From: a phage
Length of the DNA: 50,979 nucleotides
Sequence record: PZ445502.1
Direction: 5' to 3' (one strand)
Position numbers and translations under genes: made by a program. Shown in pieces: positions 1 to 50,979 of this stretch. The number at the start of each line of letters is the position of its first letter. The first letter of the stretch is position 1. The notes under the pieces were generated by a model. That model did no database searches, was not told the origin of the DNA, and saw only the letters and a list, made by a program, of their open reading frames with translations.

Positions 1-1569
1 ATGATCATATGGGAAGATTTGACGGCAGCGCAAAAGCGAGCCATTAAAGAAATCAGTGAGCATTCATTCGAAAAGATGATCAGAATCTGGTTCCAGTTAT
101 TGCAGGGGCAAAAATTCCAGAGCAACTGGCATTTTAGCTTATTGTGCAGTGAGGTAGAGAAGATCATCAATGGAGAGTCGCAGAATGTGATTTTCAATAT
201 TACGCCAGGTAGCGGCAAGACTGAGATTTTCTCGATCCACATGTCACCCTACGCGTCATTGAAAAGCCGGAAGGTGAGAAACCTTAACCTTTCGTTTAGT
301 GATGGACTTGTCCAGCAAAACAGCAACAGGATAAAGGAGATTATCGGTTCTCCTGAGTGGCAAGAGCTATGGCCAGGAAAACTGGCAAAGGCGAGTGCAA
401 AAGATCTCATAGTTACGGATGGCGGCAAGGTTAAATTGCAAGTTAACTCACGATCTATTGGCGGACAGGTAACGGGTTTGCGTGGCGGCTATATGGACGA
501 TGGTTTTACTGGTATGCTGGTTCTTGACGATCCAGACAAGCCGGATGATATGCTTTCTAAGGTCAAGCGTGAGGCGATCCACATGAGGTTAAAAAACACA
601 GTGCGATCGCGTCGAATGAAAGACACTACGCCGATTGTTATGGTGCAACAGCGACTACACGTTAATGATTCCACCTGGTTTATGCTTAATGGCGGGATGG
701 GTGGTATTGAGTTTAAAGTTGTGAGTATTCCGGCGCTGGTTACGAAAGAATACCGCGAAACGCTTCCTGATTGGTTGAAGCCTGAATTTGATCGTGATGT
801 TCTGTCAAGTAAGCCAGTGATGATAGATGGCGTTGCTCATTATTCATTTTGGCCTGCAAAGGAAAGCGCGGAGGAATTGCTTGCATTGCGGAATGCAGAT
901 CCTTACACGTTCGCCAGCCAATACCAACAACAACCAATCGCGCTTGGCGGCAACGTGTTTAAAACAGAGTGGTTCCAGTATTACGGCAGAGGCGAAAAAT
1001 GCGCACTTCCTAAACCGGATCGCTTTGAATACACATTTATTACTGGAGATACAGCACAGAAGGCCGGAGAGCTTAACGACTATTCAGTTTTTTGTTATTG
1101 GGGGATGTATAAAAATCGCGTTTACTTCATTGATGGCATTCGCGGCAAGTGGGAAGCGCCAGATCTTGAATTAAATTTTATTGCCTTCGTTAATCAGTGC
1201 TGGAAGCGCAATAAGGAGTGTGGCAGCTTGCGACGTATTCACATTGAGGATAAGGCCAGCGGCACGGGTTTGATTCAGGGGGCCAAAAAGAAGATCCCGA
1301 TTGATATAAATCCCGTTCAGCGAAGCAATGACAAGGTAACGCGAGCAATGGACGCCGCGCCAGTAATGAGGGCCGGACGTGTGGCACTGCCAGAAAATCA
1401 TCCCATGCTGCCTGAGATACTGGCAGAGGTTGCAGCATTCACTTTTGATGATTCTCATCCCCATGATGATATTGTCGATAATATAGTTGATGCTGTTAAC
1501 GTCGAAATGAATTTGGCAGACGATCCGGTAGCAAGGATGAAAAAGCTGGCTGGTCTACGCAATAAATAG
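1..1569 (+). CDS. terL: terminase large subunit
   Basis: 522 aa; Walker A-like ITPGSGKTE and Walker B-like MLVLDDPDKPDD; first gene of the structural module; ATG at window position 1. Confidence 0.85.
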   Translation: MIIWEDLTAAQKRAIKEISEHSFEKMIRIWFQLLQGQKFQSNWHFSLLCSEVEKIINGESQNVIFNITPGSGKTEIFSIHMSPYASLKSRKVRNLNLSFSDGLVQQNSNRIKEIIGSPEWQELWPGKLAKASAKDLIVTDGGKVKLQVNSRSIGGQVTGLRGGYMDDGFTGMLVLDDPDKPDDMLSKVKREAIHMRLKNTVRSRRMKDTTPIVMVQQRLHVNDSTWFMLNGGMGGIEFKVVSIPALVTKEYRETLPDWLKPEFDRDVLSSKPVMIDGVAHYSFWPAKESAEELLALRNADPYTFASQYQQQPIALGGNVFKTEWFQYYGRGEKCALPKPDRFEYTFITGDTAQKAGELNDYSVFCYWGMYKNRVYFIDGIRGKWEAPDLELNFIAFVNQCWKRNKECGSLRRIHIEDKASGTGLIQGAKKKIPIDINPVQRSNDKVTRAMDAAPVMRAGRVALPENHPMLPEILAEVAAFTFDDSHPHDDIVDNIVDAVNVEMNLADDPVARMKKLAGLRNK

Positions 1570-1585
1570 CACTAATTGCTAAAAA
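1565..1585 (+). promoter_or_regulatory. variant copy of the conserved intergenic motif (AATAGCACTAATTGCTAAAAA), followed by TATATAAT and a hairpin
   Basis: overlaps the terL stop TAG; 4 mismatches to the consensus; -10-like box only ~8 nt downstream, so it does not fit the usual spacing. Confidence 0.4.
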
Positions 1586-1596
1586 GTTATATAATC

Positions 1597-1624
1597 AAGG
1601 CTGGATTTTTCCAGCCTTTTTTAT
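1597..1624 (+). terminator. rho-independent terminator-like hairpin between terL and portal
   Basis: AAGGCTGG-attttt-CCAGCCTT followed by a T-run. Confidence 0.5.
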
Positions 1625-1639
1625 TATGGAGATTTGACG

Positions 1640-2932
1640 ATGAGCGAAAAAACAAGGCTAGTTAAGGCCGATGGATACAACGAGATTTTCAAGGGTAGTA
1701 AGGGCAATGGGCGTGTAGAGTTGCCTTTCTTTATGCAGGGGTTCGAATACACCACGCACGCTGATTTTTACATTCGCGACGGCCTAGCAAAACGAATCAT
1801 CGACGTTGTTCCAGAAGAAATGGTGACGCCTGGATTTAATATTGATGGCGTGGAAGATGAGGAAAGTTTTAGATCTTTGTGGGATGAGAAGCGACTAAAC
1901 GATAAAATCATTGATGCGCTTTGCTGGTCGCGTCTTTTTGGTGGCGCTGCAATCGTGGCAATCGTCCAGGATGGCAGGGCGTTAAAGTCACCTGTAGCGC
2001 CCGGTGCAATCCTTGAAGATGTTCGCGTTTACGATCGCTTTCAGGTTCGCGTAGAAAAGCGCGAAACTAATCCACGCAAGGTGCGATATGGCGAGCCGTT
2101 AATTTACACCATTTCACCTGGTGCGGACTTGCCAGAATATCAGGTTCACTATTCGCGAGTCTGTATTATCGACGGTGAGCGGCTACCAAATCAGCGACGT
2201 CAATCAAATGATGGGTGGGGTGAATCGATCCTGAATAAGCGACTAGTTGAGGCCATTTGTGATTATAACTACTGCGAAAACTTAGCAACTCAATTGTTGC
2301 GACGTAAGCAACAGGCGGTATGGAAAGCTAAAGGTCTTGCTGATCTTTGTGATGATGATGATGGTGTTAACGCTGCACGTTTGCGCCTTGCTCAAGTTGA
2401 TGATGAGGGTGGCGTAGGCCGCGCGATCGGCATTGATGCGGAAGATGAGGAATATGATGTTTTAAATTCTGATATTTCCGGCGTCGATTCATTCCTGGAA
2501 AAGAAGATGGATCGCATTGTATCTCTTTCCGGCATCCATGAAATCATCCTCAAAAACAAGAACGTTGGCGGTGTTAGCGCGAGCCAAAACACGGCGCTTG
2601 AAACCTTCTACAAGCTGATCGATCGAAAGCGAAAGGAAGAATACAAACCAATCCTTGAATTTCTGATCCCGTTCCTGATTCAAGAGGAAGAATGGAGTAT
2701 TCAGTTTGCGCCGTTAAGCGTTCCCAGCGAAAAGGACCAGGCCGAGATCTTGAACAAGAATATTGATTCTTTGAGCAAGGCTATTGACGGTCAATTCATG
2801 GATGCAGATGAGGCACGCGACACATTGCGAGCCATTGCGCCTAACGTTAAACTAAAAGACGGCAATAACATTAAATTACCTGAGCAGGACGTAGAGCCGG
2901 AGCCAGGAACAACCGAGGGTAACGATCAATGA
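1640..2932 (+). CDS. portal protein
   Basis: 430 aa immediately after terL; GGAG 9 nt upstream of ATG 1640 (track begins at TTG 1634); acidic C-terminus. Confidence 0.75.
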   Translation: MSEKTRLVKADGYNEIFKGSKGNGRVELPFFMQGFEYTTHADFYIRDGLAKRIIDVVPEEMVTPGFNIDGVEDEESFRSLWDEKRLNDKIIDALCWSRLFGGAAIVAIVQDGRALKSPVAPGAILEDVRVYDRFQVRVEKRETNPRKVRYGEPLIYTISPGADLPEYQVHYSRVCIIDGERLPNQRRQSNDGWGESILNKRLVEAICDYNYCENLATQLLRRKQQAVWKAKGLADLCDDDDGVNAARLRLAQVDDEGGVGRAIGIDAEDEEYDVLNSDISGVDSFLEKKMDRIVSLSGIHEIILKNKNVGGVSASQNTALETFYKLIDRKRKEEYKPILEFLIPFLIQEEEWSIQFAPLSVPSEKDQAEILNKNIDSLSKAIDGQFMDADEARDTLRAIAPNVKLKDGNNIKLPEQDVEPEPGTTEGNDQ

Positions 2933-5382: not shown

Positions 5383-6165
5383 ATGGCTAAAGATTATTCA
5401 TCTGTTATGGGTCTTTCTTGCCCTGGTTGTTTGGTTGATTCTACTCGCTACAATATTGATGGAACTGGCGTTTGCGGATCTGAGTCGATCATTGCTGGCA
5501 AAGTTGTTTTCTTCAAAGAGAGAGTGGAAGGTTATAACATATTTGTTGATCATAAAGAGTATGATGCTGTGGTTGCTGGTGTTGCTATAAGGAGCAATAT
5601 CACGACAACGGTTAACGAGGAAGACGGATACTCTGACTATAAGGAAGGAGATTCTATCAATATTTTAACAAGAGGGGTTGTATGGTGCTTAACTCAAACG
5701 ATTGAGTCTGCGCCTGAACATGGCGATCTTGTTTATGTTAACAATGATGGTTTTGTAGCAAAAAGTGATGGCGATGAAATCGTCGATGGCTGGATTTTTA
5801 CTGGTGACTTCTACAAGTTTGATGAAACAATGAACATAGTCGGAGTCAGAATAACGCCGCTTCATCATAGAAAATACCTTCTTACTGGTGCGATCATTGA
5901 GGCCGAAGATGGCTACATAGAGGGAACAGAGACGATTAATAACGTTCAATTAAAGGTAACGGTTGTTCCTACTTGGGCTGATGACAAAACGGGTCAGTGG
6001 ACAATTACAAACGAGCAAGATCCAAAGGTTGCCAGCGTTAGCCGTACAGGTCTTGTTGTTCCTACTGGTGTAGGAGGCAGAGTTAACGTCAACTGGACTG
6101 CTAATGATGGTTCTGGAGTTGCTGACCAGTTTGATATTGTATTTACGAAAACCGCTGGCGAATAA
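5383..6165 (+). CDS. head protein, paralog 2 with Ig-like C-terminal region (possible decoration protein)
   Basis: 260 aa; N-terminus similar to 4823..5332; C-terminal beta-rich T/V/G segment. Confidence 0.4.
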   Translation: MAKDYSSVMGLSCPGCLVDSTRYNIDGTGVCGSESIIAGKVVFFKERVEGYNIFVDHKEYDAVVAGVAIRSNITTTVNEEDGYSDYKEGDSINILTRGVVWCLTQTIESAPEHGDLVYVNNDGFVAKSDGDEIVDGWIFTGDFYKFDETMNIVGVRITPLHHRKYLLTGAIIEAEDGYIEGTETINNVQLKVTVVPTWADDKTGQWTITNEQDPKVASVSRTGLVVPTGVGGRVNVNWTANDGSGVADQFDIVFTKTAGE

Positions 6166-6192
6166 CTAATAGCATAAAAAAACATTGCACGT

Positions 6193-8014: not shown

Positions 8015-8385
8015 ACTACAATGAGATTGCAAGAATGGCTACGGCTGGGATTAACTTTTTCAGCGACGCTAACGGTATGTTTAAGTGCATCACGCAGCAG
8101 GGAGGGGTTGAGATTATCGGCGGAGAGGAAGTTACCAAGCCGGAGATTTCAGTGATGATAAAGGGGCTTGTTAGATCCCCGAAAGCTAGAGAGGTTGACG
8201 GTGAAACAATCAGAGTAACAGACAAGTTGGGGATATTCACCAATGAAACTGAGATCAAAAATGGTTATCAGATTGAAATTGATGGCGATCGTTACGTTGT
8301 CGTTGAAGCAAGACCAGTCAGGCAGACTAACATCACGGCAGCTTATCGTCCGATATTAAGGAGGATTGCAGTGCATGGCGGATAA
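8002..8385 (+). CDS. head-tail adaptor / neck protein
   Basis: 127 aa; overlaps upstream gene; gene order. Confidence 0.4.
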
Positions 8386-13744: not shown

Positions 13745-14506
13745 ATGGCTAATAAAGAATCAGGTAGAGTTGAATTTGAGAACTGCCTACAAAGTTTGTA
13801 CCCAGGCGAAATTATAACGCTTGTAGAGATTGACGGGACGAAGTTCGGAGCAAATATTTACCGATTTCACAATGAGAACATCTCTTATACTGCCGAGGAA
13901 TTAATGCAAGCGCAGCAAACCGGAATCTTGCCGCCGAAAGATATTATTTTTCAGGGTGATGTTTACGGAGCGCGGCCTTTCGGTGTGAGCGGGATTAACT
14001 TCACAAGTAACGGCAGGGCAGATAAGCCTCAGCTTATAGTGTCAAACCTTGACAGCAGGGTTAGCGCCATGATCAGAAATTACAATGGCATGATGCAAGC
14101 AAAGGTGACTTTCTGGATCACGGCAAAGGAATTTATAGGAGAAGGCGGAGCAATCAAAGATGGCGCTTACAGAAAATTGGTTTATTACATTGAGCGACCA
14201 AGCCAGTATAATAGAGAGGTGGCGAAATTTGATCTGACATCGCCTTACGATATGGATGGATTAATGATCCCGCCGCGCATCACTCAAAGCGTTTGCTATT
14301 GGGCGCAAAGGGGGTGGTACAGGAGCGGAAAGGGTTGCTCTTATAACGGATCGGCAATGTTCGATAAAGACAATAATCCAGTAACAGATCCATCACAAGA
14401 CTATTGCGCAGGAACTGTAACGGCTTGCAAATTGAGATTCGGTCAGCAAAACGAGTTGGATTTCGGCGGTTGCGCGGTGGCGTCACTGCTACGGAGGAAT
14501 CAATAA
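13745..14506 (+). CDS. minor tail protein (lambda gpL-like)
   Basis: 253 aa; Cys-rich C-terminal segment; gene order. Confidence 0.65.
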   Translation: MANKESGRVEFENCLQSLYPGEIITLVEIDGTKFGANIYRFHNENISYTAEELMQAQQTGILPPKDIIFQGDVYGARPFGVSGINFTSNGRADKPQLIVSNLDSRVSAMIRNYNGMMQAKVTFWITAKEFIGEGGAIKDGAYRKLVYYIERPSQYNREVAKFDLTSPYDMDGLMIPPRITQSVCYWAQRGWYRSGKGCSYNGSAMFDKDNNPVTDPSQDYCAGTVTACKLRFGQQNELDFGGCAVASLLRRNQ

Positions 14507-20115: not shown

Positions 20116-20394
20116 TCACCCCCAAAAAGTATATATATATCTTGAATCAGATCCAGAAAGCCCACTCCATGTAACGGTGTCGCCACTCACCCCTAAGTTT
20201 GGTGCGCCAGGGTCGCCACCACGCCAGGAATTCATGCCAACATATATTGCTTTCAATGATTTACCTGGCGGCCTGTTTTGGTAAGTCTTGCTACCTGATG
20301 GCTGAGTGAATTTATCAAGGAAGAAAACAGGCGTTAAAAGTCCTGTAACTTCCCTTCCTCGATCGTCATATATTGCATAACCATATTGCGCCAT
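20116..20394 (-). CDS. hypothetical protein
   Basis: 92 aa; GAGGTG SD; in operon with the lipoprotein gene. Confidence 0.45.
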   Translation of the reverse strand: MAQYGYAIYDDRGREVTGLLTPVFFLDKFTQPSGSKTYQNRPPGKSLKAIYVGMNSWRGGDPGAPNLGVSGDTVTWSGLSGSDSRYIYTFWG

Positions 20395-20663
20395 TAATTA
20401 CACCTCAAATCAATAAATTTACTTTCATTTTGCCAACGGTTGATAAATTTAACTTCTTTATTGTCAACGCTCAACCTGTATTGCTTTTGGCTGAATCTGT
20501 TTTCGCGGACTGCATTAATTTTGACTTCATGGAATCCGTTAACAGGGAATGTTTTAACGTTAAATTTTGCCGTGCAATCGATCTCCTTGAAGTTGCCAGT
20601 AGGCGACGCTGCGCATCCTGTCAGAGCGGCTACAGTGGCGATAACTGCGATTAACTTTTTCAT
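20394..20663 (-). CDS. small outer-membrane lipoprotein, Cor/Llp-like superinfection exclusion candidate
   Basis: 89 aa; signal peptide with lipobox LTGC; AAGGAG SD; next to the tail fibre region. Confidence 0.55.
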   Translation of the reverse strand: MKKLIAVIATVAALTGCAASPTGNFKEIDCTAKFNVKTFPVNGFHEVKINAVRENRFSQKQYRLSVDNKEVKFINRWQNESKFIDLRCN

Positions 20664-20694
20664 CTTTATATCTCCTTAGTTGTTGTTGTTTTCA

Positions 20695-20740
20695 ACTATA
20701 CACGATCTTGGGCATCGCGTTTAGCAAAAAGTGCTATTTG
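20695..20740 (-). promoter_or_regulatory. motif-class promoter (motif, ~21 nt, TATAGT) reading toward the lipoprotein operon
   Basis: minus strand reads AATAGCACTTTTTGCTAAAC then 21 nt then TATAGT. Confidence 0.5.
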
Positions 20741-21105
20741 TTATTTTTTGTTTTCCGGTGTTATCGAATTTAAGACGGCGTAAATTTAGCGCAAATTTTA
20801 TCCAACACAAGAACAATAAACAATCAATAAAATAGATATATACATATAAAATCAATAGTTTATTTATTTATGTATGTATATTTGTTTTTTCTTGTTGTCT
20901 GCGTTTCTTGTGGTTTTGGTTGTTTGTGGTGATTTTTCTTTCTGAGTATCTGTATGTGCCATCATTCATGTGTATGTATATAATCCGGCGTATCTGAGAG
21001 AACAGGGGAACAAGAAAAATAACACATATTAATCATTAACTTATGAGTCAAATCTGTTTTCTTGCCATCTGAGAACGTTTAGAAAACAGAAAAAACAAAA
21101 CAGCT

Positions 21106-21134
21106 ATTGACTAAATCAACCAAATGGCTACAAT
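21106..21134 (+). promoter_or_regulatory. sigma70-like promoter (TTGACT-N16-TACAAT)
   Basis: near-consensus hexamers at canonical spacing about 30 nt upstream of ATG 21165. Confidence 0.5.
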
Positions 21135-21164
21135 GCACGCATAAAGCAACAAGGAGCATTAAAG

Positions 21165-22220
21165 ATGAGTGATTTTAACGCCTACACTAGCGAAGAAATG
21201 AGCAACGAGCTTTATCATGATCCTAACGCGTGGACGGCTGAATATGTCAGCGGTTCCAGCCTGGCGGAGATTTACAGCACTTGCCCGGCGTACTGGAAGT
21301 ACAAGCCGCGCCAGGAAACTAAAGCACTTGTTTTCGGTACGCAGTCGCATACCAACTTTGAAAGCAAGGAGCTATTCGAAAAAACATATCGCCGCGCACC
21401 GTCGCAGGATGATTTTAAAGATCTGATCACTAGCCAAACGGCGTTAGCATCAAAGCTGAAATCTTTTGGCCTGAAAGGTACGACGGGTAAACAATACCCT
21501 GAATTACTGGAAATGCTGTACAAGTGCGGCGAGGATCTCAATGTGTGGTGGCTTATCGAAATGATGGCAGAATGCCAGGCCGCAGCGGACGGAGTGCAGT
21601 TAATAGACGCTAAAGATTATGATGCCTGTGTAGCGATGCGGCGCGTACTTGAGGCCATACCGGAGCATAACGCTTGCATGAACAGCCCAACCGCGCAGCG
21701 TGAAATGTCAATATTTGGGATCATCAACGGCGTAAAAGTAAAAGTGCGTCTTGATCACGTTGACGTAAACAAGGATGTAAAGGCAACAATCATTAACGGT
21801 TACGACGAAAAAGGCAGGCCGATTTATGAAGAAGTCACCTATCCAGAAGCGGTGATTATCACTGACTACAAAACAACGGTTAGCGCAAATCCGGTTGACT
21901 TCCAGCGCCTGGCTTACAATCACGGCTATTATCTTAAAATGGCTTTGCAACATGACTTATTCAAAAAGGCGTATCCAGACGAGGAAAGGCCAGTAATTGT
22001 AAGATTGCTTGCGCAGGAGAAGAAAGAGCCTTACTTGCCGCTTGCTTTCCGCATGAATATTGAGCAATTGAAGATCGGGCGCATCCAGTACATGAGCGTG
22101 ATCAACAAGTTCAACGTTTGCCAGCAGTTAGATGAATGGCCTTCGTATGCAAACGGACAACCAGAAATTGATCTTGATACTCCTGATTGGGTTCGTGCTC
22201 AATTCAGGCAGTATCTGTGA
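21165..22220 (+). CDS. putative recombination exonuclease (PD-(D/E)XK-type)
   Basis: 351 aa; ITDYKTT-type motif; first gene of an exonuclease / annealing protein / SSB block. Confidence 0.5.
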   Translation: MSDFNAYTSEEMSNELYHDPNAWTAEYVSGSSLAEIYSTCPAYWKYKPRQETKALVFGTQSHTNFESKELFEKTYRRAPSQDDFKDLITSQTALASKLKSFGLKGTTGKQYPELLEMLYKCGEDLNVWWLIEMMAECQAAADGVQLIDAKDYDACVAMRRVLEAIPEHNACMNSPTAQREMSIFGIINGVKVKVRLDHVDVNKDVKATIINGYDEKGRPIYEEVTYPEAVIITDYKTTVSANPVDFQRLAYNHGYYLKMALQHDLFKKAYPDEERPVIVRLLAQEKKEPYLPLAFRMNIEQLKIGRIQYMSVINKFNVCQQLDEWPSYANGQPEIDLDTPDWVRAQFRQYL

Positions 22221-22292
22221 CAAACTAAACAAATAGCTAAACTTTTATAATGGTTGGTGATATAATTCACCAACCAGATAACGGGAGAATGA

Positions 22293-22949
<657 letters not shown>

Positions 22950-24506: not shown

Positions 24507-26482
24507 TATACAATTTCCCCCAATTGATGATCTGTTAGTGCCTTGTGCCATATACGGAAGTTTCTAACGTGCCCGAAAAGATGGCGTTCGCCCGTAGTTG
24601 TTTGTCCGCCAATCCTTATAGTAGCCGTTGATTCTATGTATCTCCATTCCGTTTTTGTTTCGCTTGATATTCTGGCATTACTTACACAGCAATTATTGTA
24701 ATCACTCTTTACTCTCATTCCCATGATCATCTTTTTTAGTTTTGCATTCTCGTAAACCCTTCTGTTTGATCCACCTATATCGCAATAAGGGAATCCATCA
24801 TTATCGCCCTCGGCAGATCCGAAAGCAAGAATAATTGCCGCACCAGATTGATGACCTACAGTATCAAAAACACGAGGCGCAGCATTTGGCGTTATACTCC
24901 AGTTTTTATTAGCTTCCACAAGAACTGTAAACGGCAAATTGTAAAGGTTGTTTTTTATTGGCACTGAAACCATATCGCTTGCCCTTGTTACTGGATTTTC
25001 TTCTGTAATTATGAAAGAAGAGGCACAAGATCCTCCCTCAACTTGTGGAGTTGCAATATAAATGTAATCATCCGCGCCAGTGCCCACTCCTTTTGCCGGG
25101 GCATACTGAACCATTCCACCTATCATATTTTCTGTATCAAGTGCCTTAATTGTCGCCTCAAAAAAGATCCATTTGCTTGCTTCATCTTTAACAGCCCTTG
25201 CAGTAATACGATTTGCAGCGACGCCAGTTTTTTCAATTGATAAATCTGTCAGATTTACGTAAGCATCACCCAAAAATGCATAAGCAGATCCATCGTAGTT
25301 TTCAAATCGTAATCGGCATCTTAAATTTGGAGTCCCACTTTGCGCCCTGCATGATATGGTTACATACTTTTCATTTCCTGTTACATCAAAACCTCTACTG
25401 CCGGAAACGGTTACTATGTTAATCGCTGAAGTTTGCCCTACCATTTCTGGTTTTAATGTAAATTTTGCGTACTGGAATCCGAAATTATCCACACCTGATC
25501 TAGCTAAGATCATATTTGATGACTTGTTCCATTTTGAAGGATTGACGCTATTTATAAGAAGGTTTGTTCTTTGCCCCTCAATGAGCAGACCATCCTTTTC
25601 AAATCTAGGTTCATCAATAGCAGCATTAGTAAGCACCCCAGACTTATTAATGTAAGTAGCGGTTGATGCGCGTTTAAACTTAACAATCTTGTCACCTGGC
25701 ATCGTGATCTCATCGTCACCTATAACAATCTTTTTATATGACGGAGAGAATCCGGTGATCATATCCAGGGAATCATTAAACGGTATCCACACGTCCGGCA
25801 ACGGTTGCAATAAATCTTTGTAAGGTTCTGCGGCCTGCTTTGCGTATTCCTCCGCTTGATCTCGCGCACTTTCAGCTCCTGCCTTTGCAGTGTTCGCAGC
25901 GTCACGCGCGGATTCAGCGCCTTTTCTTGCAGTTTCAGCGCCAGTCTTTGCAGTGTTTGCAGCGTCGCGCGCGGATTCAGCGGCAGCCTTTGCAGTGTCA
26001 GCACCTTTCTTGCTATTCTCTGCATTTGTTGCGCTTGTCTTTGCGTTATTCTCGCTAGTTTTAGCTGCCTTCTGGCTTGCTGCGGCTGCGTCAGCATTTG
26101 TCTTTACGTCTTCCTGGATCTTCTGTAGCTTATCCCAATCAAAATCCTTGATGATCTCAATAAATCCAGCAAACTCCGATTCCTTCCCCTGGTAATAACG
26201 CAACGTTTCCGCTACGTCTTGCGCAAGACCGTCAACCGTTAACGAGTCATGAAGCAAGATCAGGTAATTTGTCTTCTGTACTACCGCGCCGCCAGTAGTA
26301 ATTGCGCGAATGCTTGTATCGCTAATCACTTCTGTAATCACAGCAGCTTGCAAAGGTTGAGAAAGAAAGAAAATAGTTGCACCTGGGCGAATCAAGGTTA
26401 ATTGCTCACGCCATTTTGTACCGTAACCAGTTACATATCCTTGCGCGTCCATAGACGCTTGGCCTTGTCTGTAAATCGCCAT
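24506..26482 (-). CDS. long tail fibre protein with Ala-rich repeat region
   Basis: 658 aa from ATG 26482 with AGGAGG SD (track begins at 26506); N-terminal region with repeated AKxxAExARDAANTAK units; beta-rich C-terminal part. Confidence 0.55.
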   Translation of the reverse strand: MAIYRQGQASMDAQGYVTGYGTKWREQLTLIRPGATIFFLSQPLQAAVITEVISDTSIRAITTGGAVVQKTNYLILLHDSLTVDGLAQDVAETLRYYQGKESEFAGFIEIIKDFDWDKLQKIQEDVKTNADAAAASQKAAKTSENNAKTSATNAENSKKGADTAKAAAESARDAANTAKTGAETARKGAESARDAANTAKAGAESARDQAEEYAKQAAEPYKDLLQPLPDVWIPFNDSLDMITGFSPSYKKIVIGDDEITMPGDKIVKFKRASTATYINKSGVLTNAAIDEPRFEKDGLLIEGQRTNLLINSVNPSKWNKSSNMILARSGVDNFGFQYAKFTLKPEMVGQTSAINIVTVSGSRGFDVTGNEKYVTISCRAQSGTPNLRCRLRFENYDGSAYAFLGDAYVNLTDLSIEKTGVAANRITARAVKDEASKWIFFEATIKALDTENMIGGMVQYAPAKGVGTGADDYIYIATPQVEGGSCASSFIITEENPVTRASDMVSVPIKNNLYNLPFTVLVEANKNWSITPNAAPRVFDTVGHQSGAAIILAFGSAEGDNDGFPYCDIGGSNRRVYENAKLKKMIMGMRVKSDYNNCCVSNARISSETKTEWRYIESTATIRIGGQTTTGERHLFGHVRNFRIWHKALTDHQLGEIV

Positions 26483-30594: not shown

Positions 30595-30633
30595 TCAATA
30601 ACACGAGATAGCTTTTAATAGCGGAGAAATGAA

Positions 30634-31359
30634 ATGGCTAAAGATATTTTAGATAAAGACACCCATGACGCATTCGTTAGCTTTGAGCAGTTGGAGAGAG
30701 AAACATTTATAGGGAATGCCCTTGCAACTGGAGGCCATTACCAGGCAGTAAAGCCAAATCAATATTATAAGGTAAGCGGCAACCGATACGCTGGAAGCAC
30801 TACGCCGGACGTTGTGCGCGATATGTGGAGCACACCTCAAGAGATCGTGGAGTGGATGGAATCAGAATTTGGCGAATACGATCTCGACGCGGCAGCAAGC
30901 CAGGAAAACGCAGTTTGCGAGAAGTTCTATAGCAAGGAAACAAACTGCTTAAAGCGTTGGTGGGGTAGCAACAAGCACGTATGGCTTAACCCGCCGTACA
31001 GCAACCCAACTCCATTTATCAAGAAAGCAATTGAGCAAATGGAGCACAACAACCAAATTGATGTTTTGTTGCCATCCGACAACTCTACAGCATGGTTTTA
31101 TGAGGCGCAGAAAAACGCGGCTGAAATCATCTGGATCACTGGCGAGGTTTACGAAGAGGGGGGAGTGGAATATTCCCGCACCGGAAGAATCGCCTTTGTG
31201 TCTGGATTGACTGGCGAGCCTGTACAGGGCAACAATAAGGGGAGCGTGATTTTTGTCATGCGTAAACTTAAAGAAGGCGAAGAGCAGAAAACGCGATACG
31301 TTAAGATCAGCGATATTTGTCCTTCTGTTACCGAACGCCGAGCACGCAAACGGAGTTAA
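30634..31359 (+). CDS. DNA N6-adenine methyltransferase (Dam-like)
   Basis: 241 aa; NPPY motif (WLNPPYSNP). Confidence 0.75.
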   Translation: MAKDILDKDTHDAFVSFEQLERETFIGNALATGGHYQAVKPNQYYKVSGNRYAGSTTPDVVRDMWSTPQEIVEWMESEFGEYDLDAAASQENAVCEKFYSKETNCLKRWWGSNKHVWLNPPYSNPTPFIKKAIEQMEHNNQIDVLLPSDNSTAWFYEAQKNAAEIIWITGEVYEEGGVEYSRTGRIAFVSGLTGEPVQGNNKGSVIFVMRKLKEGEEQKTRYVKISDICPSVTERRARKRS

Positions 31360-35374: not shown

Positions 35375-36951
35375 CCCAGCAGTATTGGATTGACAAAAAT
35401 AACACCATTAATCACACAAACATAATTTCTTTCTTCCAGCATTGGCAGTAAGTGCCCTTCTATCCTTTTCATTACGCCAGCCTGACCAACGAAAGGTTTT
35501 ACCTTTCTCGCTGATTCGTACAGGGCGCGAATATTCAGGATCCCTTTGTTAGCCTTGCCGTGCCTCGTGATCAATTCAATCAATTTACCCATTTCAGCAT
35601 CATCACCAGCATAACCAGAAGCATTGGCGGCGCTAATGTATGTTTTGCTCAATTCCTGAAACATGATCAACGCCTCTTGCATTGTTTCCACGTCGATCTC
35701 TTTCGACTTCTGCGGGTATCCGGCAGGATTAAACCAGTTACGGATAACATGCAGGACGGAAGCAAGCCTGATCACCTGTTTATCCATTTTACCCAGCGCA
35801 CCGCGTAACATTGTATGAGAATACTTTCCTCCGTCTGCAAGATGCGGTTCCATATCCTGGCGAGCAATGTTGAGCACTCGCATAGCTGAACGGCTTATTT
35901 TCAGCGATATATTTGATTCGCTCATGATGTTATGCACCAATTGATAATATTGGGCTTTCAATTCAGAATCCACCGCCTCATAGGTAGAATCACCATTTTC
36001 ATCAATGAATGAGCGACGGCCTAAGAATGATTCCTCGCGGACCAACAAAAAACGCTCACTAACACCGATGCCTCGCGAACCAGCGTCCATGATTCCGCTT
36101 ATCGTTTCATCCTGGGCTATAACGCTCATACATCCAAGCGCGCGAAAACTCATATTATTGTCAGCATTAGCACGGGCAATTGATACGTGACCATTATCCC
36201 ACGCCTTAAGCACTAACTCACTGTTAGTCTTCCTTTCGCTATTTGCATAGGTCAAACCTAACAGACTGTTAATACTTGTTGCTTCATCAGAAATTACGGC
36301 AAAGTTACCTTGCTTGTTGTTGATTTTCGCCAAGCCTTCTGGAGTTGTATCTGAAACAGGAAAAGTTATATCACACATTTTTTCCAGCTTTTCCTCCAGA
36401 TCCTCTTTTTCCTGGTATAGAGATTCCATATCAGCGCCGGATCTTTCGCTTTTCATCTCCTTTGCAAGACCTGCCAGCTTTGCCTGTATTTTCTTTCTTT
36501 CCTTGCGGCGTTGCTCGTTGATCTTCTCAACTTCCGCAATCATCGGAGCAATAGCCATGCTGTTGATCGCAGATTTACCAGTTGACGGCGGCTGGCTTGT
36601 AACGACGTAAAGCGCAGTCGGCTGATCGGTTCCGTGATAGTCAACCGTAAAGCGTCCAAGCATAGCGGCAGAAATGCAGCCGATAAAGTGCATGTAAGCC
36701 GATGATTCAGGGAATTGAACGGATCGCGCAATGCTGCGTGATAACTTGCCGACAACATCAATATCATTACCAAGAGAAATAACGGGGTAGCGATCGTGAC
36801 CGCTATTCACATCCTTTACGTCGCCCCAAAAGCTGGACGACTGGCGATAGCCGTTAGCCTGAATTGATACGCGAACTGGTGAAAGGTTCTGGCTTTCAGC
36901 CATAGCGATTATTTGCTGTGGAGTTAATTTGTTCGTTTCTAATGAAAACAT
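35371..36951 (-). CDS. P-loop NTPase of unknown function
   Basis: 526 aa; Walker A SQPPSTGKSA and Walker B-like FAVISDEAT; AAGGAG SD; largest early gene. Confidence 0.55.
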   Translation of the reverse strand: MFSLETNKLTPQQIIAMAESQNLSPVRVSIQANGYRQSSSFWGDVKDVNSGHDRYPVISLGNDIDVVGKLSRSIARSVQFPESSAYMHFIGCISAAMLGRFTVDYHGTDQPTALYVVTSQPPSTGKSAINSMAIAPMIAEVEKINEQRRKERKKIQAKLAGLAKEMKSERSGADMESLYQEKEDLEEKLEKMCDITFPVSDTTPEGLAKINNKQGNFAVISDEATSINSLLGLTYANSERKTNSELVLKAWDNGHVSIARANADNNMSFRALGCMSVIAQDETISGIMDAGSRGIGVSERFLLVREESFLGRRSFIDENGDSTYEAVDSELKAQYYQLVHNIMSESNISLKISRSAMRVLNIARQDMEPHLADGGKYSHTMLRGALGKMDKQVIRLASVLHVIRNWFNPAGYPQKSKEIDVETMQEALIMFQELSKTYISAANASGYAGDDAEMGKLIELITRHGKANKGILNIRALYESARKVKPFVGQAGVMKRIEGHLLPMLEERNYVCVINGVIFVNPILLG

Positions 36952-39129: not shown

Positions 39130-39342
39130 TCATTTCTTATTTTTCATCTTAAATTTATGGCCCGGAACACCAGCGCCAATATAGCCATCGTTGTATTCCA
39201 TTAAATAAAGGTGAAGACCATTATCTGAAATTACATGAGGATCTTCTTTGAGATTTCCCATTAGTGGATATTCTTTTTCGCGCGTGAATTTCCAAATTGA
39301 GTTATAAGTTTCTACGCATTTAAGTTTTAATTGCTTTGCCAT
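39130..39342 (-). CDS. hypothetical protein
   Basis: 70 aa ORF. Confidence 0.4.
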   Translation of the reverse strand: MAKQLKLKCVETYNSIWKFTREKEYPLMGNLKEDPHVISDNGLHLYLMEYNDGYIGAGVPGHKFKMKNKK

Positions 39343-40595: not shown

Positions 40596-40849
40596 TTTTT
40601 CTTCTCCTGCAATAAGCAAACATCATTGATAAAATCAGCACGGCCCTTAATGTTGCTGATGTGGAACGTCTTTTCAGCGTACAGGCCATTACCTTCAATC
40701 ACGATCATTACGCGAGTCGGTTTATTCACGGGCGCACGAGAAAAGGGTTGGCGCACCGGAAGAAATTTAGTCATCACATCCAGGTTAGAACTGGCGGCCC
40801 TGCAAAATGCCTCCGCCAGATCCAAATCATTTTCGGTAATCACCGCCAT
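40583..40849 (-). CDS. hypothetical protein
   Basis: 88 aa from ATG 40849, TAATG overlap with the upstream stop. Confidence 0.4.
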   Translation of the reverse strand: MAVITENDLDLAEAFCRAASSNLDVMTKFLPVRQPFSRAPVNKPTRVMIVIEGNGLYAEKTFHISNIKGRADFINDVCLLQEKKKCWM

Positions 40850-41121
40850 TACTTCTTGATCTCCTTGCTGATAAATTTCAGCACCTGGCGCAAGAAAACC
40901 TCGTTGTTGATAGTCGCTGGCAATTCTTCTTTCACTTCTTGCGGCAGATAGATATTGCCGTGCCAGGTCAAGCAATCGTAGTTGATACGATAAGAGCAAA
41001 GCCACTCGCAATCGTTATCTGCTTCCCAAATGCAGAGTTGCAGAACATCGCCAAAATCTTCAACAGTCAGATCCAGACCGTGACGCTTAGCGAAATTGAA
41101 AGTGGTTTTGCTGATGTTCAT
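40849..41121 (-). CDS. hypothetical protein, first gene of the minus-strand early operon
   Basis: 90 aa; GGAGA SD. Confidence 0.45.
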   Translation of the reverse strand: MNISKTTFNFAKRHGLDLTVEDFGDVLQLCIWEADNDCEWLCSYRINYDCLTWHGNIYLPQEVKEELPATINNEVFLRQVLKFISKEIKK

Positions 41122-41152
41122 TGCTATCTCCTGTGCGGTTCGTTTCGATGTG

Positions 41153-41200
41153 TGTAATGTACCCGATCAGGTGGCCTGAGTTTTAACAAAAAGTGCTATT
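41153..41200 (-). promoter_or_regulatory. motif-class promoter (motif, 22 nt, TACATT) at the head of the minus-strand early operon
   Basis: minus strand AATAGCACTTTTTGTTAAAAC then 22 nt then TACATT. Confidence 0.5.
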
Positions 41201-41754
41201 TGACGGTTAGCGCCAGGATTGCGATCGAAATAATCAAAAGTAATCATTCGTAATCAAATCACGTCAAAATGATGATTGCCTTTGCAAATTTGATGAGAAA
41301 AGTAATCACGTTTAATCATTGGTTGCAGGGGAGATAGTGAAACCCTCCCCTCTTGCCTCACTTTTTCGCCTGGCTGTCAGTGGTTGTTGTCTTTTGTTCA
41401 CCCCTGTTACCGATTTCAGGCGGCGTGTTTCCGCGCGGTTTTCCGGTGTAGCGAAAACGGAAAAAACAAAGAAAATCCTCTATAATACATTGAAAATAAA
41501 GATTATTTATTTATATATATCTATAATGTTTTCTTTTTGTTCTCACTGTTACAGTGCTTTTTGTTGGTTATGGTGTGGTTGTGTGTGGGTATATATGGAT
41601 AGTTGCGCGCGCGGCGGATTGCATATGTATATATACTTTTTCCGGCGGATTGCGTTAACAGAGTGAACAGAAAAATAACAGCCGCGAAATCAATAACTTG
41701 CGCATGATTTTGTAGTTTTTCGATATTGGTAACGTTTTGAATACAACAAAAACA

Positions 41755-41783
41755 TTGACACGCACCAAATAGCTTTTATAATG
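41755..41783 (+). promoter_or_regulatory. sigma70-like promoter (TTGACA-N16-TATAAT) for the plus-strand early operon
   Basis: consensus hexamers at canonical spacing about 30 nt upstream of ATG 41814. Confidence 0.55.
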
Positions 41784-41813
41784 CGCCAACAGTCAACAAC
41801 TGGAGGAAAGGAA

Positions 41814-42278
41814 ATGGAACAGAAGACCACTAAGGACTATTGCGATTGGCTTCGCGAGCTTGGTCGCCGCCTGGCTAGTGGCGATATTGAAGAGTATAAA
41901 ATGTCACTAATTGACCTGGCCGGAATGTTAAGCGGTGACGACTGCTACAAGATCACGCGCAGTTCATCCTACAGCCGGACCATTATCAACCGCGTTCCAG
42001 AAGTAAGGGCCGCAGGTCGGGTAAGCATCAAGGTAGAGGAAACGGAAGATGATAAATTTTACGTTTTCCGCATGGTCCGCGAATCGAAAAGGAAAATCAT
42101 CACACCCGAAGAATTGCCAGCCATCAAGGCAAGGGCGATCAAAAAGTTTGCCGATCGCATACTGGCAGCAATCCCGAATATCGTTGACCTGGAAGGGGAT
42201 AAACTGGCTGGGGCTTGCGAGGGCGTAAGCCGCTACCAGGATATGATCCGCGAAATCATCAAAGAGGAAGAGCAATGA
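41814..42278 (+). CDS. hypothetical protein, first early gene
   Basis: 154 aa from ATG 41814 with GGAGG SD. Confidence 0.45.
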   Translation: MEQKTTKDYCDWLRELGRRLASGDIEEYKMSLIDLAGMLSGDDCYKITRSSSYSRTIINRVPEVRAAGRVSIKVEETEDDKFYVFRMVRESKRKIITPEELPAIKARAIKKFADRILAAIPNIVDLEGDKLAGACEGVSRYQDMIREIIKEEEQ

Positions 42279-43050: not shown

Positions 43051-43252
43051 ACACACATAGACGGGCGGCAAGGATTGCTGCGGGAGAGGAGTAACGCAGG
43101 GGCTTGATCGAAGTGTCAGGATTCCCAACCGTGAGGCCAGAACTATCACACTCGCCACCAGGCAGAACGCTAGATAGGTCACTGAGCTGAGGCTACCGAC
43201 GAAGTGAAGCCCGTCACCAAAGATTAAACGGTTATTTATGTTAAAGGGGTTA

Positions 43253-43435
43253 ATGATGGATAAGATCATCAAAATGAGCGAAGTCAAGCCGGGAATGATG
43301 GTTAAGTTTGCTGGCAAATATCGCCTAGTGCTGGATAACTGCCGCAAAGAGAACATTCTTACCATTCGTGTAAATGGCAAGGCGCAGCTATTCGCCCCTA
43401 GCGCAGATATTGACGTTGAAGTTAGAATTAAGTAA
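43253..43435 (+). CDS. hypothetical protein
   Basis: about 60 aa from ATG 43253 with AAGGGG SD. Confidence 0.4.
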   Translation: MMDKIIKMSEVKPGMMVKFAGKYRLVLDNCRKENILTIRVNGKAQLFAPSADIDVEVRIK

Positions 43436-44636: not shown

Positions 44637-44818
44637 TGGATGATTTTACTCGGCTTGTTCTCGGCTGGATTGTGTTTCTTTTTGCGTGGCTTATCCACTG
44701 TGCGAGATATAAATTCAGACTGAGCTATGATAATTCATTCGTTATGACCTGCTTCAGTATTCCAGGATGGATCATTTTACTTTTGGCTACTGCTGAATAC
44801 ATCCATAAAACATTTTAA
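44636..44818 (+). CDS. small membrane protein
   Basis: 60 aa; two hydrophobic helices. Confidence 0.4.
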   Translation: MDDFTRLVLGWIVFLFAWLIHCARYKFRLSYDNSFVMTCFSIPGWIILLLATAEYIHKTF

Positions 44819-44828
44819 GGATTAATAT

Positions 44829-45368
44829 ATGAAAAAATACACTTTCGAACTATGGGGCAAGAAATACGAATTAATGACCAGCAAGCCGATTGTTATCGTT
44901 GATCTGGATGGTACGCTATCGGACGGATCGCATCGTTTGCACTTGCTGCCAACCGAAAACTTGCACCTTACGGAATCGTGGAGCGAATTTAACAGAGCAG
45001 CCGCCGGAGATTCACCGATTAAAAGCACGATAGCGGTTATTAACGGTTTATGGGTGTCGGGATTTGCCATCGTCATCTTGACCGGACGTAGCGACGAGGT
45101 TCGCTATAAAACCTGCAAATGGTTGAATGAGAACGGTGTGAAGTTTGACGAAATCATCATGCGCCGCCAGGAGGACAACCGAAAGGATACGGTTATTAAA
45201 GAAGAAGCCTTGCGCGCCATTGGCCTGGACAGCATTGTTTGCGCCTTTGACGATTCGCCGAACGTGGTTAAGCACTTCCGCAGCCTGGGGATCACAACCT
45301 ATCAGGTCACGGAATACGACAAGCCACACGCTCACCTGCAATCTCACGGAGTGGAGTGTTTAAAATGA
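44829..45368 (+). CDS. HAD-superfamily phosphatase (5'-nucleotidase or polynucleotide-phosphatase-like)
   Basis: 179 aa; HAD motif I VDLDGTL, motif II ILTGR, motif IV FDDSPN. Confidence 0.55.
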   Translation: MKKYTFELWGKKYELMTSKPIVIVDLDGTLSDGSHRLHLLPTENLHLTESWSEFNRAAAGDSPIKSTIAVINGLWVSGFAIVILTGRSDEVRYKTCKWLNENGVKFDEIIMRRQEDNRKDTVIKEEALRAIGLDSIVCAFDDSPNVVKHFRSLGITTYQVTEYDKPHAHLQSHGVECLK

Positions 45369-45526
45369 CTTGGTTGCTTTTAATCTTTGTCACAAGTTAC
45401 AACTCCGCAGCTATTGAGTCGCAGGAGTTCCACGGCGAATCAAGATGCCAGGAGGCGCGAAAGCAAGTTATTCTCCACATGTCAGATAGTGGGAAGGATG
45501 TAACAGCGTTATGCGTTCGTAAATAG
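45365..45526 (+). CDS. small protein with N-terminal hydrophobic segment
   Basis: 53 aa, not in the ORF track; ATGA overlap with the upstream gene; ends AAA TAG inside the motif. Confidence 0.35.
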   Translation: MTWLLLIFVTSYNSAAIESQEFHGESRCQEARKQVILHMSDSGKDVTALCVRK

Positions 45527-50374: not shown

Positions 50375-50406
50375 AAATTACCCGCCGCACGGCGGGTTTT
50401 TTATTG
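50374..50406 (+). terminator. rho-independent terminator
   Basis: ACCCGCCGCACGGCGGGT hairpin followed by TTTTTT. Confidence 0.65.
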
Positions 50407-50452
50407 CCCGTTGTCTGGTATAATCAGGCATCTAACCAAAGGAGGATTAATA

Positions 50453-50979
50453 ATGGCTAAAAATGTTGAGCCTGCTGTAAAGGCATTAAATTTCAAAGAG
50501 TTATACAATAAAACTTATGGCGATATTGTCACGCTAAACAACCGCCACAAGTACACGCCGGAACAGGTTTTTGATATGGCGATCCGCTATTTCACTTGGG
50601 CTGAAGAGAATCACATCCAGGCGGCTGAAACTGCTTCCTTTCAGGGTGACGTGTACGAGAGCAGAGTTTACAAGCCTCGCGTTTTCACGGTTAACGGATT
50701 CAGCTTGTATCTCGGCGTGACTGAGGCTGCCGTAAGCAAATGGCGTAAAGAGCCTGGATTCTGCGATGTGATGGAGTTTGTTGATAAAGTAATTTACGAG
50801 CAAAAATTCCAGCTTGCGGCAAATAACATGATTAACGCTGGATTTATCGGTAAAGAGATCGGAGTAGAGAAGCCAGCAACAGTGAGCGTTGAAGCGAGCG
50901 CGGCAGCTAATGCAAGCATTGACGCAGTAACTGCCGATGAGGTGAAAGAGGCTGTGATTGATATTCTGGAGCAACTTTA
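50453..50979 (+). CDS. terS: terminase small subunit, 3' end runs off the window
   Basis: GGAGG SD; HTH-like segment FSLYLGVTEAAVSKWRK; open to the last base; the final TA plus window base 1 would give TAATG coupling to terL. Confidence 0.6.
   Translation, partial: MAKNVEPAVKALNFKELYNKTYGDIVTLNNRHKYTPEQVFDMAIRYFTWAEENHIQAAETASFQGDVYESRVYKPRVFTVNGFSLYLGVTEAAVSKWRKEPGFCDVMEFVDKVIYEQKFQLAANNMINAGFIGKEIGVEKPATVSVEASAAANASIDAVTADEVKEAVIDILEQL

What the first reader, a model, noticed from the sequence alone, without database searches (positions are those of the whole stretch)
50453..50979. Window ends join terS to terL with a TAATG overlap, consistent with a complete genome
A terS-like ORF starts at 50453 and is still open at the last base, ending ...CAA CTT TA. 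Base 1 of the window is the A of the terL ATG. Joining the ends gives CTT TAA TG: a terS stop overlapping the terL start, the same coupling used at several other junctions in this genome. The 50,979-bp window is therefore probably a whole circularly permuted or terminally redundant genome, and the pac site is probably in or near terS.
Basis: inference. Interest (0 to 1): 0.5.

Follow-up and report, generated by a model that had tools for sequence, protein, structure and literature searches.

The report
Complete T1-like phage genome, opened at terL
The two ends of this sequence are neighbours on a complete, circularly assembled genome of an ordinary T1-like coliphage that was deliberately opened at the large-terminase start codon, and the packaging start site is most likely about 9 kb upstream of the small-terminase gene, not in it.

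Summary
The ORF at 50453-50979 is 175 codons plus 'TA' and is still open at the last base. Base 1 is the A of the terL ATG, so joining the ends gives CTT-TAA-TG. The ORF is a full-length P22-gp3-type small terminase. ORF 1-1569 is the large terminase.

The joined ends match as one piece in 42 Warwickvirus (Drexlerviridae) records, ungapped in 41, and in 8 independent raw assemblies. RefSeq SECphi27 annotates the same 1-nt terS/terL overlap. The window is collinear with SECphi27 around the whole circle, so it is a complete genome. Its origin is a bioinformatic convention: at least four other records start at the same base.

Headful packaging with terminal redundancy is inferred from the family. 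It cannot be seen in the sequence.

The last part of the interpretation, pac in or near terS, is not supported. In T1 and TLS the mapped pac end lies 8.4-8.8 kb upstream of terS. In MSK a PhageTerm peak lies about 4.2 kb upstream. All three fall in a ~700-nt AT-rich non-coding region. The window's counterpart is 41122-41814, and I predict the cut near 41270-41350.

This is ordinary and already known.

The parts
50453..50979 (+). Small terminase gene terS: 175 codons plus the first two bases (TA) of its TAA stop. The stop is completed by base 1 of the window.
   Evidence: sequence. (PF16677, PHROG 606). (P22 gp3, PDB 3P9A, E 1.7e-15, residues 34-144). (the exact 175-aa protein is on record in public assemblies).
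1..1569 (+). Large terminase gene terL (522 aa). Its ATG shares its A with the terS stop once the ends are joined. PGSGKT (Walker A-like) and LVLDD (Walker B-like) are visible in the translation.
   Evidence: The same 1-nt overlap is annotated in SECphi27 and called in 8 of 8 independent contigs.
50968..50971 (+). GGAG Shine-Dalgarno-like motif inside the terS 3' end, 8 nt upstream of the terL ATG. It fits translational coupling or re-initiation.
   Evidence: Read directly. Function is inferred.
50380..50403 (+). Intrinsic-terminator-like hairpin plus T-tract, ending the early-gene cluster just upstream of terS.
   Evidence: T1 has an annotated terminator in the same relative place (8322..8344, before terS at 8396).
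50416..50445 (+). TGGTATAAT (extended -10-like, 50416-50424) and AAAGGAGG (ribosome-binding site, 50438-50445, 7 nt before the ATG). Probable start of the packaging/morphogenesis operon.
   Evidence: Read directly. The promoter scan did not list it because there is no -35 match. Inference.
1640..2932 (+). Portal gene, next in the packaging/head module.
   Evidence: PF06381, E 5e-76; PHROG 146.
41122..41814 (.). 693-nt, 40% G+C non-coding region between the leftward gene 40849-41121 and the rightward gene starting at 41815. It is the counterpart of the region that holds the pac end in T1, TLS and MSK, and the predicted site of packaging initiation.
   Evidence: same length class, 693-783 nt; same landmark repeat about 60 nt from the left gene; TATATA blocks. 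(pac ends of relatives).
41269..41351 (+). Best estimate of the pac cleavage zone. ATGATGATTG (41269-41278) is unique in the window. The T1, TLS and MSK ends map by alignment to about 41278, 41286 and 41351. The record of phage XY3 starts at 41337.
   Evidence: The alignment of diverged non-coding DNA is weak, so this is an inference.
41180..41202 (-). Copy of the family-wide 21-nt intergenic repeat (aaATAGCACTTTTTGTTAAAA). It is the landmark about 60-70 nt from the first leftward gene.
   Evidence: The repeat is described for TLS in PMC11447400.
41755..41782 (+). Perfect sigma-70 consensus TTGACA-16-TATAAT, facing the rightward early genes.

Best explanation
The window is the complete, non-redundant genome of a virulent T1-like siphophage (Drexlerviridae, Tempevirinae, Warwickvirus-like). 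It was assembled as a circle and then cut open, by convention, at the first base of the terL start codon. That cut separates terS (50453-50979) from the last base of its own stop codon.

In the real molecule terS and terL are adjacent and overlap by one base (TAATG), with a GGAG 8 nt upstream of the terL ATG. Ribosomes finishing terS can therefore start terL (translational coupling), as at about eight other gene junctions in this genome. terS is the first gene of the packaging/head operon, preceded by a terminator and an extended -10-like element.

The virion DNA is not circular. By analogy with T1 and TLS it is cut from concatemers by the terS/terL terminase, starting at a pac site and continuing by headfuls. 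This gives terminally redundant, partly permuted linear molecules.

The pac end is most likely not at terS. I place it in the 693-nt non-coding region 41122-41814, near 41270-41350, about 9.1 kb upstream of terS, with packaging running rightward through the early genes towards terS, terL and the rest of the genome.

Shown: the gene identities, the join, completeness, and the location of mapped ends in relatives. Inferred: coupling, headful packaging in this phage, and the pac position.
For: Join and gene identity.

Completeness: one search shows circular collinearity with SECphi27, with 96.4% of the window covered and junction 20845|20846 equal to 50979|1. Searches show both halves 96-98.5% identical to 50-52-kb relatives.

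Convention: searches show four or more records with the identical origin. One search shows BASEL and EC records opened at the terS ATG instead.

Coupling: one search lists the TAATG and ATGA junctions. Searches show GGAG at 50968-50971.

Headful packaging in the family: PMC11447400, the T1 repeat_region 1..2800, PMC9119101, PMC13507304.

pac location: the TLS record starts at the assigned pac AGATTT, and its HindIII (5876) and EcoRV (2733) sites agree with the published mapping. terS lies at 8792 in TLS and 8396 in T1. The MSK PhageTerm peak falls in the homologous non-coding region. In T1, TLS and MSK the end lies 162, 195 and 221 nt from the first leftward gene, 100-160 nt beyond the conserved 21-nt repeat. 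By alignment these map to window 41278-41351. The XY3 record starts at 41337.
Against: No reads are available, so neither circular assembly nor physical ends were observed for this phage.

The T1 and TLS pac positions rest on restriction mapping, with a resolution of tens to hundreds of bp. The final TLS base was chosen by resemblance to P22 pac. The MSK record is 'UNVERIFIED' and its PhageTerm call was classed 'type unknown'.

The pac-proximal DNA (41200-41420) is conserved only within Warwickvirus, so the mapping from T1, TLS and MSK rests on architecture and a weak alignment.

The origin of XY3's start point is undocumented.

terS belongs to the P22 gp3 family. In P22 pac does lie inside the terS gene, so a pac inside terS cannot be excluded from sequence alone.
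Confidence: 0.85

Rival explanations
1. One reading: a complete, permuted genome whose pac site lies within or next to terS, as in P22, Sf6, SPP1 and P1.
For: terS is a P22 gp3 homologue. In P22 the pac site is inside gene 3 (cited in PMC11447400). Two relatives' records start 25-58 nt upstream of the terS ATG (Poky, brachmannus).
Against: Mapped or PhageTerm-derived ends in three Drexlerviridae subfamilies are 4.2-8.8 kb upstream of terS, in a homologous non-coding region. The P22-pac-homologous segment of terS (50753-50774) matches 9 of 22 bases. The best match anywhere in terS is 12 of 22, and no match in the genome exceeds 15 of 22. Record starts just upstream of terS, or at its ATG, look like annotation conventions: seven records start exactly at the terS ATG.
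Confidence: 0.1
2. The window is incomplete. Sequence is missing between its two ends, for example a homing-endonuclease gene such as the one that sits exactly between terS and terL in BEK26 and BEK12A.
For: BEK26 carries a 492-nt HNH gene starting at the terS TAATG and overlapping the terL start. This junction can therefore hold extra DNA in this genus.
Against: The joined ends reproduce, base for base, the uninterrupted junction of 41 records and 8 raw assemblies. In BEK26 the terS 3' end (…GAGAAGATATA) and the terL 5' end (80% identity) are altered around the insert, whereas the window has the uninterrupted form. The genome length of 50,979 bp is within the 48.5-51.9 kb range of HNH-free relatives. 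A window that starts exactly on the ATG and ends exactly one base before it is what re-orientation of a closed circle gives.
Confidence: 0.02
3. The window ends are true physical ends (cos or short direct terminal repeats) lying between terS and terL.
For: None beyond the coincidence of the ends with a gene boundary.
Against: A physical end here would split the terS stop codon. There is no terminal repeat at the ends. More than 40 independent assemblies read straight through the site. The family is experimentally pac/headful. SU57, a T1-like phage, showed no cos behaviour (PMC7718038).
Confidence: 0.02

Closest known systems
Escherichia phage SECphi27 and other Warwickvirus members (XY3, tunus, JLBYU16, swan01, ExeQuayColi); Drexlerviridae, Tempevirinae
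   Same: Same gene order around the whole circle, 95-98.7% nucleotide identity over 96% of the window. Identical terS/terL TAATG junction. Same 693-nt non-coding region, 97-99% identical in its left 290 nt.
   Different: No identical record. The best halves are 98.0% (XY3) and 98.5% (tunus) identical. Six short mosaic patches have no megablast match in SECphi27: 5658-6169, 24580-25031, 39160-39337, 43070-43433, 44638-44824 and 45357-45521.
Coliphages T1 (Tunavirus) and TLS (Tlsvirus): pac-initiated headful packaging with limited permutation
   Same: Same genome plan: non-coding region with pac, rightward early genes, terminator, terS, terL, portal. terS DNA is about 67% identical to T1's. Shared 21-nt intergenic repeat. 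Same architecture of the pac-bearing non-coding region.
   Different: In T1, terS and terL are separated by 24 nt (8920/8945), not overlapped. The pac-proximal sequence itself is not conserved at the nucleotide level. Packaging has not been studied in this phage.
Salmonella phage P22 gp3 small terminase (PDB 3P9A) and its intragenic pac site
   Same: Homologous terS core, residues 34-144 against 23-133, E 1.7e-15. Adjacent terS-terL genes. Headful packaging.
   Different: The P22 pac site lies inside gene 3. The homologous segment here (50753-50774) keeps 9 of 22 bases. In the T1 family the mapped pac end is kilobases upstream of terS.
Stop/start overlap (TAATG, ATGA) translational coupling in phage operons
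   Same: One-base overlap of the terS stop and terL start, with an SD-like GGAG in the upstream gene. Repeated at many junctions in this genome.
   Different: Nothing unusual. Coupling itself has not been tested.

Membership tests
Small terminase, P22 gp3 family (Pfam PF16677 GP3_package) | Sequence match above the family's curated threshold | tested here: met
   43.5 bits against a cut-off of 29.4. PHROG 606, E 2e-53. PDB 3P9A, E 1.7e-15.
Small terminase, P22 gp3 family (Pfam PF16677 GP3_package) | Gene lies immediately upstream of the large terminase gene | tested here: met
   Met only after joining the window ends. Confirmed in relatives and raw assemblies.
Small terminase, P22 gp3 family (Pfam PF16677 GP3_package) | Binds or recognises the pac site; pac inside its own gene as in P22 | tested here: not met
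   Binding is not testable here. The P22-type intragenic pac sequence is absent (9 of 22 at the homologous place). Mapped ends in T1, TLS and MSK lie 4-9 kb upstream. This lowers 'pac as in P22', not membership of the protein family.
Large terminase (PHROG 38; Terminase_6C nuclease domain) | N-terminal ATPase with Walker motifs plus a C-terminal RNase-H-like nuclease | tested here: met
   PHROG 38, E 3e-107 over residues 4-509. PF17289, 42.5 bits against a cut-off of 22.6, at residues 409-500. PGSGKT and LVLDD are visible. No solved homologue is detectable by sequence.
Genus Warwickvirus (Drexlerviridae, Tempevirinae) | More than 70% nucleotide identity over the genome length to members, with shared gene order | tested here: met
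   96.4% of the window aligns to SECphi27 at 93-98.7% identity, collinear around the circle.
pac-type headful packaging (T1/P22 style) | Terminally redundant, partly circularly permuted virion DNA; submolar pac fragment | not testable with these tools
   Needs reads or virion DNA. Family evidence only.
pac-type headful packaging (T1/P22 style) | Assembly closes into a circle with no unique ends | tested here: inconclusive
   The ends join perfectly and there is no terminal repeat. However, the record has evidently been trimmed and rotated, so the raw assembly state is not visible.
Translationally coupled gene pair | Stop codon of the upstream gene overlaps the start codon of the downstream gene, with an SD inside the upstream gene | tested here: met
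   TAATG across 50977-50979 and 1-2. GGAG at 50968-50971. Functional coupling was not tested.

The most novel reading that the evidence does not exclude
The pac recognition element of T1-family phages may be a genus-specific sequence at a fixed place in the large non-coding region: 100-160 nt beyond the first leftward copy of the 21-nt repeat, here about 41270-41350 and including the unique ATGATGATTG. It would be read by a P22-gp3-type small terminase that acts about 9 kb from its own gene. This would be a conserved 'remote pac' architecture across three Drexlerviridae subfamilies that has not been defined at the base level. The opposite surprise, that Warwickviruses have moved pac into terS, is also not excluded.
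Probability: 0.3. Interest if true: 0.3.

Novelty: already known. Interest (0 to 1): 0.1.

Why it matters
The main value is for bookkeeping. The window can be treated as a whole, correctly closed genome. terS should be annotated as a complete 175-aa gene spanning the origin, not as a truncated ORF. The record's ends should not be mistaken for physical ends.

The useful correction is that the common rule of thumb 'pac is in or next to terS' does not hold for the T1 family. Anyone designing transduction, packaging or PhageTerm analyses for this phage should look at about 41.3 kb rather than 50.5 kb. Nothing here would surprise a phage-packaging specialist.

Tried and rejected
1. Terminal direct repeats or assembler k-mer overlap between the window ends: none of 8 nt or more.

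2. P22-pac-like sequence (GAAGATTTATCTGAAGTCGTTA, or the 12-mer core) in terS or anywhere else: the best match is 15 of 22, outside terS, and 9 of 22 at the homologous codons. AGATTT occurs 25 times on the + strand and is uninformative.

3. Direct nucleotide homology of the T1 and TLS left ends to the window: only the 21-nt repeat and scattered early genes match. The pac region therefore had to be located by synteny and architecture.

4. Distant blastn of 41122-41420: beyond Warwickvirus only the first ~80 nt (leader plus repeat) is conserved. No family-wide pac motif can be claimed.

5. Literature search for a base-level pac or PhageTerm coordinate in a Warwickvirus: only 'Headful (pac)' without a position, for two Drexlerviridae phages whose genus I did not verify (PMC13507304). 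There is no paper describing how XY3's start was chosen. The Rtp genome paper (J Bacteriol 2006) is not held. The T1 genome paper (Virology 2004) was not looked up. That the T1 record starts at pac rests on the record's repeat_region 1..2800 and on my memory of that paper.

6. Record start points as a proxy for pac: starts within the non-coding region are inconsistent (XY3 at 41337, ityhuna ends at 41526, Kalemo ends at 41813). Only XY3 agrees with the prediction, so this is weak evidence.

7. terL against solved structures by sequence: no hit. Not pursued by structure prediction because it does not bear on the finding.

Full report
**1. The observation**

The last 527 bases of the window (50453-50979) start with ATG. 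It is preceded by AAAGGAGG, seven bases upstream. The stretch runs for 175 sense codons and ends in the two orphan bases TA. Base 1 is the A of an ATG that opens a 522-codon ORF ending at 1569. Written as a circle the sequence reads ...GAG CAA CTT TAA TGA TCA..., so the terS TAA and the terL ATG share one base. The two ends share no direct repeat of 8 nt or more.

**2. What the two ORFs are**

- The 175-aa product matches Pfam GP3_package above threshold and PHROG 606 'terminase small subunit' almost end to end (profile positions 4-163 of 167). Nothing is missing from it.
- Its core (residues 34-144) aligns to the solved P22 gp3 small terminase, 3P9A, at E 1.7e-15.
- ORF 1-1569 matches PHROG 38 'terminase large subunit' (E 3e-107) and the Terminase_6C nuclease domain.
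- A Phage_portal_3 portal gene follows at 1640-2932.

**3. Is the join real?**

I built the junction artificially (last 600 nt plus first 600 nt) and searched GenBank phages.
- In 42 records where this region is internal it matches as one piece. In 41 of them the record span is exactly 1200 nt.
- RefSeq SECphi27 annotates terS 20319..20846 and terL 20846..22414, the same one-base overlap.
- The exact 175-aa protein, which exists only if the stop falls where the join puts it, is on record in 1127 blocks of public assemblies.
- In all eight contigs examined (ENA metagenomes, Logan run assemblies, NCBI) a 522-aa terL starts one base before the terS end. The 21-mer CAACTTTAATGATCATATGGG spans the join in every one.

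The join is therefore certain.

**4. Is the genome complete?**

A megablast of the whole SECphi27 genome (51,811 bp, a different origin) against the window gives one collinear path around the circle.
- SECphi27 1 aligns to window 30632, and 20845 aligns to 50979.
- SECphi27 20846 aligns to window 1, and 51811 aligns to 30686.
- This covers 96.4% of the window at 93-98.7% identity. The only gaps are six short mosaic patches.

Both halves of the window are 96-98.5% identical to many Warwickvirus genomes of about 50-52 kb, and none is identical. The window is a complete genome of a new isolate of a well-populated genus (Drexlerviridae, Tempevirinae, Warwickvirus; taxonomy).

**5. Why the window starts exactly on the terL ATG**

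This is a convention, not biology.
- ExeQuayColi, MartyMcPhage, Tuinin and MikeNSara begin at the same base or end at the same base.
- Seven other records are opened at the terS ATG instead.
- From my own knowledge, current phage pipelines rotate circular assemblies to start at terL.

The consequence is that terS is split from the last base of its stop codon. It looks truncated in a linear reading.

**6. The junction as a working part**

- GGAG lies 8 nt before the terL ATG, inside terS (50968-50971).
- TAATG overlaps recur at 14504, 20396(-), 24508(-), 30133, 33656, 39625(-), 40851(-) and 44634. ATGA overlaps are more numerous still. Seven of these eight TAATG junctions are also 1-nt overlaps in SECphi27's annotation. 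The exception is 44634, where SECphi27 is divergent.
- The arrangement is the ordinary one for translational coupling. Coupling itself is inferred.
- Upstream of terS there is an intrinsic-terminator-like hairpin (50380-50397 plus T-tract), followed by TGGTATAAT (50416-50424).
- T1 has an annotated terminator in the same relative place. terS therefore probably opens the packaging/head operon.

**7. Packaging mode**

This cannot be read from the sequence. The family evidence is strong.
- TLS shows a submolar pac fragment and a headful series (PMC11447400).
- T1's record carries a 2.8-kb terminal repeat_region.
- Close relatives of the window 'circularized upon assembly' (PMC9119101).
- Two Drexlerviridae phages, in a paper that mentions Warwickvirus, were called 'Headful (pac)' by PhageTermVirome (PMC13507304).

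**8. Where pac is**

It was reasonable by analogy with P22, but the mapped ends in the family lie elsewhere.
- **TLS.** The record begins with the assigned pac sequence AGATTT. Its only HindIII site in the first 9 kb is at 5876 and an EcoRV site is at 2733. [quoted passage not shown] Position 1 is therefore the mapped end. terS starts at 8792.
- **T1.** The terminal repeat is annotated from position 1 and terS starts at 8396.
- **MSK** (Rtp-like). The PhageTerm peak at 36,862 lies about 4.2 kb upstream of terS.

In all three phages the end falls in a 700-783-nt AT-rich non-coding region between a leftward and a rightward gene cluster.
- The end lies 162, 195 and 221 nt from the first leftward gene.
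- That is 100-160 nt beyond a conserved copy of the family's 21-nt repeat.
- It is left of a block of TATATA runs.

The window has the same region at 41122-41814.
- It is 693 nt long, with the repeat at 41180-41202 and TATATA runs at 41512-41632.
- A perfect TTGACA-16-TATAAT sits at 41755-41782.
- A MAFFT alignment, which is weak outside the repeat, maps the three ends to 41278, 41286 and 41351.
- ATGATGATTG is unique in the window at 41269, and the same 10-mer sits 7 nt left of the TLS end.
- The record of phage XY3 starts at window 41337.

Within terS, the segment homologous to the P22 pac site (50753-50774) keeps 9 of 22 bases. That is no better than 9% of random positions.

My estimate is that the first cut falls near 41270-41350, about 9.1 kb upstream of terS, with packaging running rightward as in T1.

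Caveats:
- The relatives' ends are known only to restriction-mapping or PhageTerm resolution.
- The pac-proximal DNA is conserved only within the genus.
- No reads for this phage were available.

**9. Rivals**

- **Missing sequence between the ends.** This deserved a look because BEK26 and BEK12A carry an HNH homing-endonuclease gene exactly between terS and terL. In BEK26 the flanking terS 3' end and terL 5' end are altered, whereas the window has the uninterrupted form base for base.
- **True physical ends at the join.** This is excluded by the split stop codon, the absence of a terminal repeat, and more than 40 assemblies that read through the site.

**10. Verdict**

The genome is complete, and permutation with terminal redundancy is likely, but the pac placement is probably wrong.
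- The feature is already known and ordinary.
- The one point worth carrying forward is the predicted pac zone at about 41.3 kb. A SpeI digest would settle it (about 11.9 kb submolar fragment against about 2.2-2.8 kb), as would read-start analysis.

Noticed in passing
window 6209(-), 9959(-), 20737(-), 26500(+), 28062(+), 30551(+), 31600(+), 34861(-), 37023(-), 37697(-), 39895(-), 41199(-), 42544(+), 43007(+), 45523(+), 48327(+): Sixteen copies (0-1 mismatch) of ATAGCACTTTTTG(T/C)(T/A)AAAAC. Many are followed by a short G+C hairpin and then CATAAT or TATAGT about 25 nt downstream. I checked that they lie in intergenic positions only for some copies. This is the '21-base intergenic repeat' of TLS, T1 and Rtp, whose function the TLS authors list as an open question (PMC11447400). 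The hairpin plus -10-like box downstream may be worth a proper look.
   Followed up: partly
L002 (BEK26, MN158216.1) 2101-2592; also BEK12A: An HNH homing-endonuclease gene is inserted exactly at the terS/terL junction. It starts on the terS TAATG and overlaps the terL start by 35 nt. The terS C-terminus is altered (…LEKI instead of …LEQL) and the first ~120 nt of terL are only 80% identical, as expected for co-conversion around a homing site. A second homing endonuclease follows terL in the same phage.
   Followed up: partly
window 41388-41408: Sharp mosaic boundary inside the non-coding region. About 20 Warwickvirus records are 97% identical up to here and then lose all megablast similarity, while about 40 others continue. 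The left, pac-proximal part is the conserved part.
   Followed up: no
L005/L006 (SECphi27 NC_047938.1) 1-55 and 51757-51811, corresponding to window 30632-30686: The two ends of the SECphi27 RefSeq record overlap by 55 nt. This looks like an untrimmed assembler k-mer overlap of a circular contig, so its stated length is about 55 bp too long.
   Followed up: no
whole window: Marked scarcity of six-base palindromic restriction sites. There are none for EcoRV, PstI, XbaI, SacI, KpnI, NcoI or ScaI, and one each for HindIII, BamHI and SpeI, where about 12 each would be expected in 51 kb. This fits restriction avoidance. The genome also encodes DNA methyltransferases (relatives' annotation).
   Followed up: no
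database hits, e.g. MG065657.1 'Campylobacter phage C4', MG065687.1 'A136': Fifteen to 21 records labelled Campylobacter jejuni phages match this coliphage family at the nucleotide level. They look like T1-like coliphages, so they are probably mislabelled or contaminants.
   Followed up: no
window 41755-41782 (+): Perfect 12-of-12 sigma-70 consensus promoter, TTGACA-16 nt-TATAAT, 33 nt upstream of the first rightward early gene (41815). It is presumably the immediate-early promoter used on the incoming DNA end.
   Followed up: no
window 41220-41320: Cluster of TAATCA / TGATTG-type short repeats (aataatca, gtaatcat, gtaatcaaatca, gatgattg, gtaatcac, ttaatcat) next to the predicted pac zone. T1, TLS and MSK have comparable GATT/AATC-rich repeats at the same place. 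They may be terminase or host-factor binding sites. Untested.
   Followed up: no
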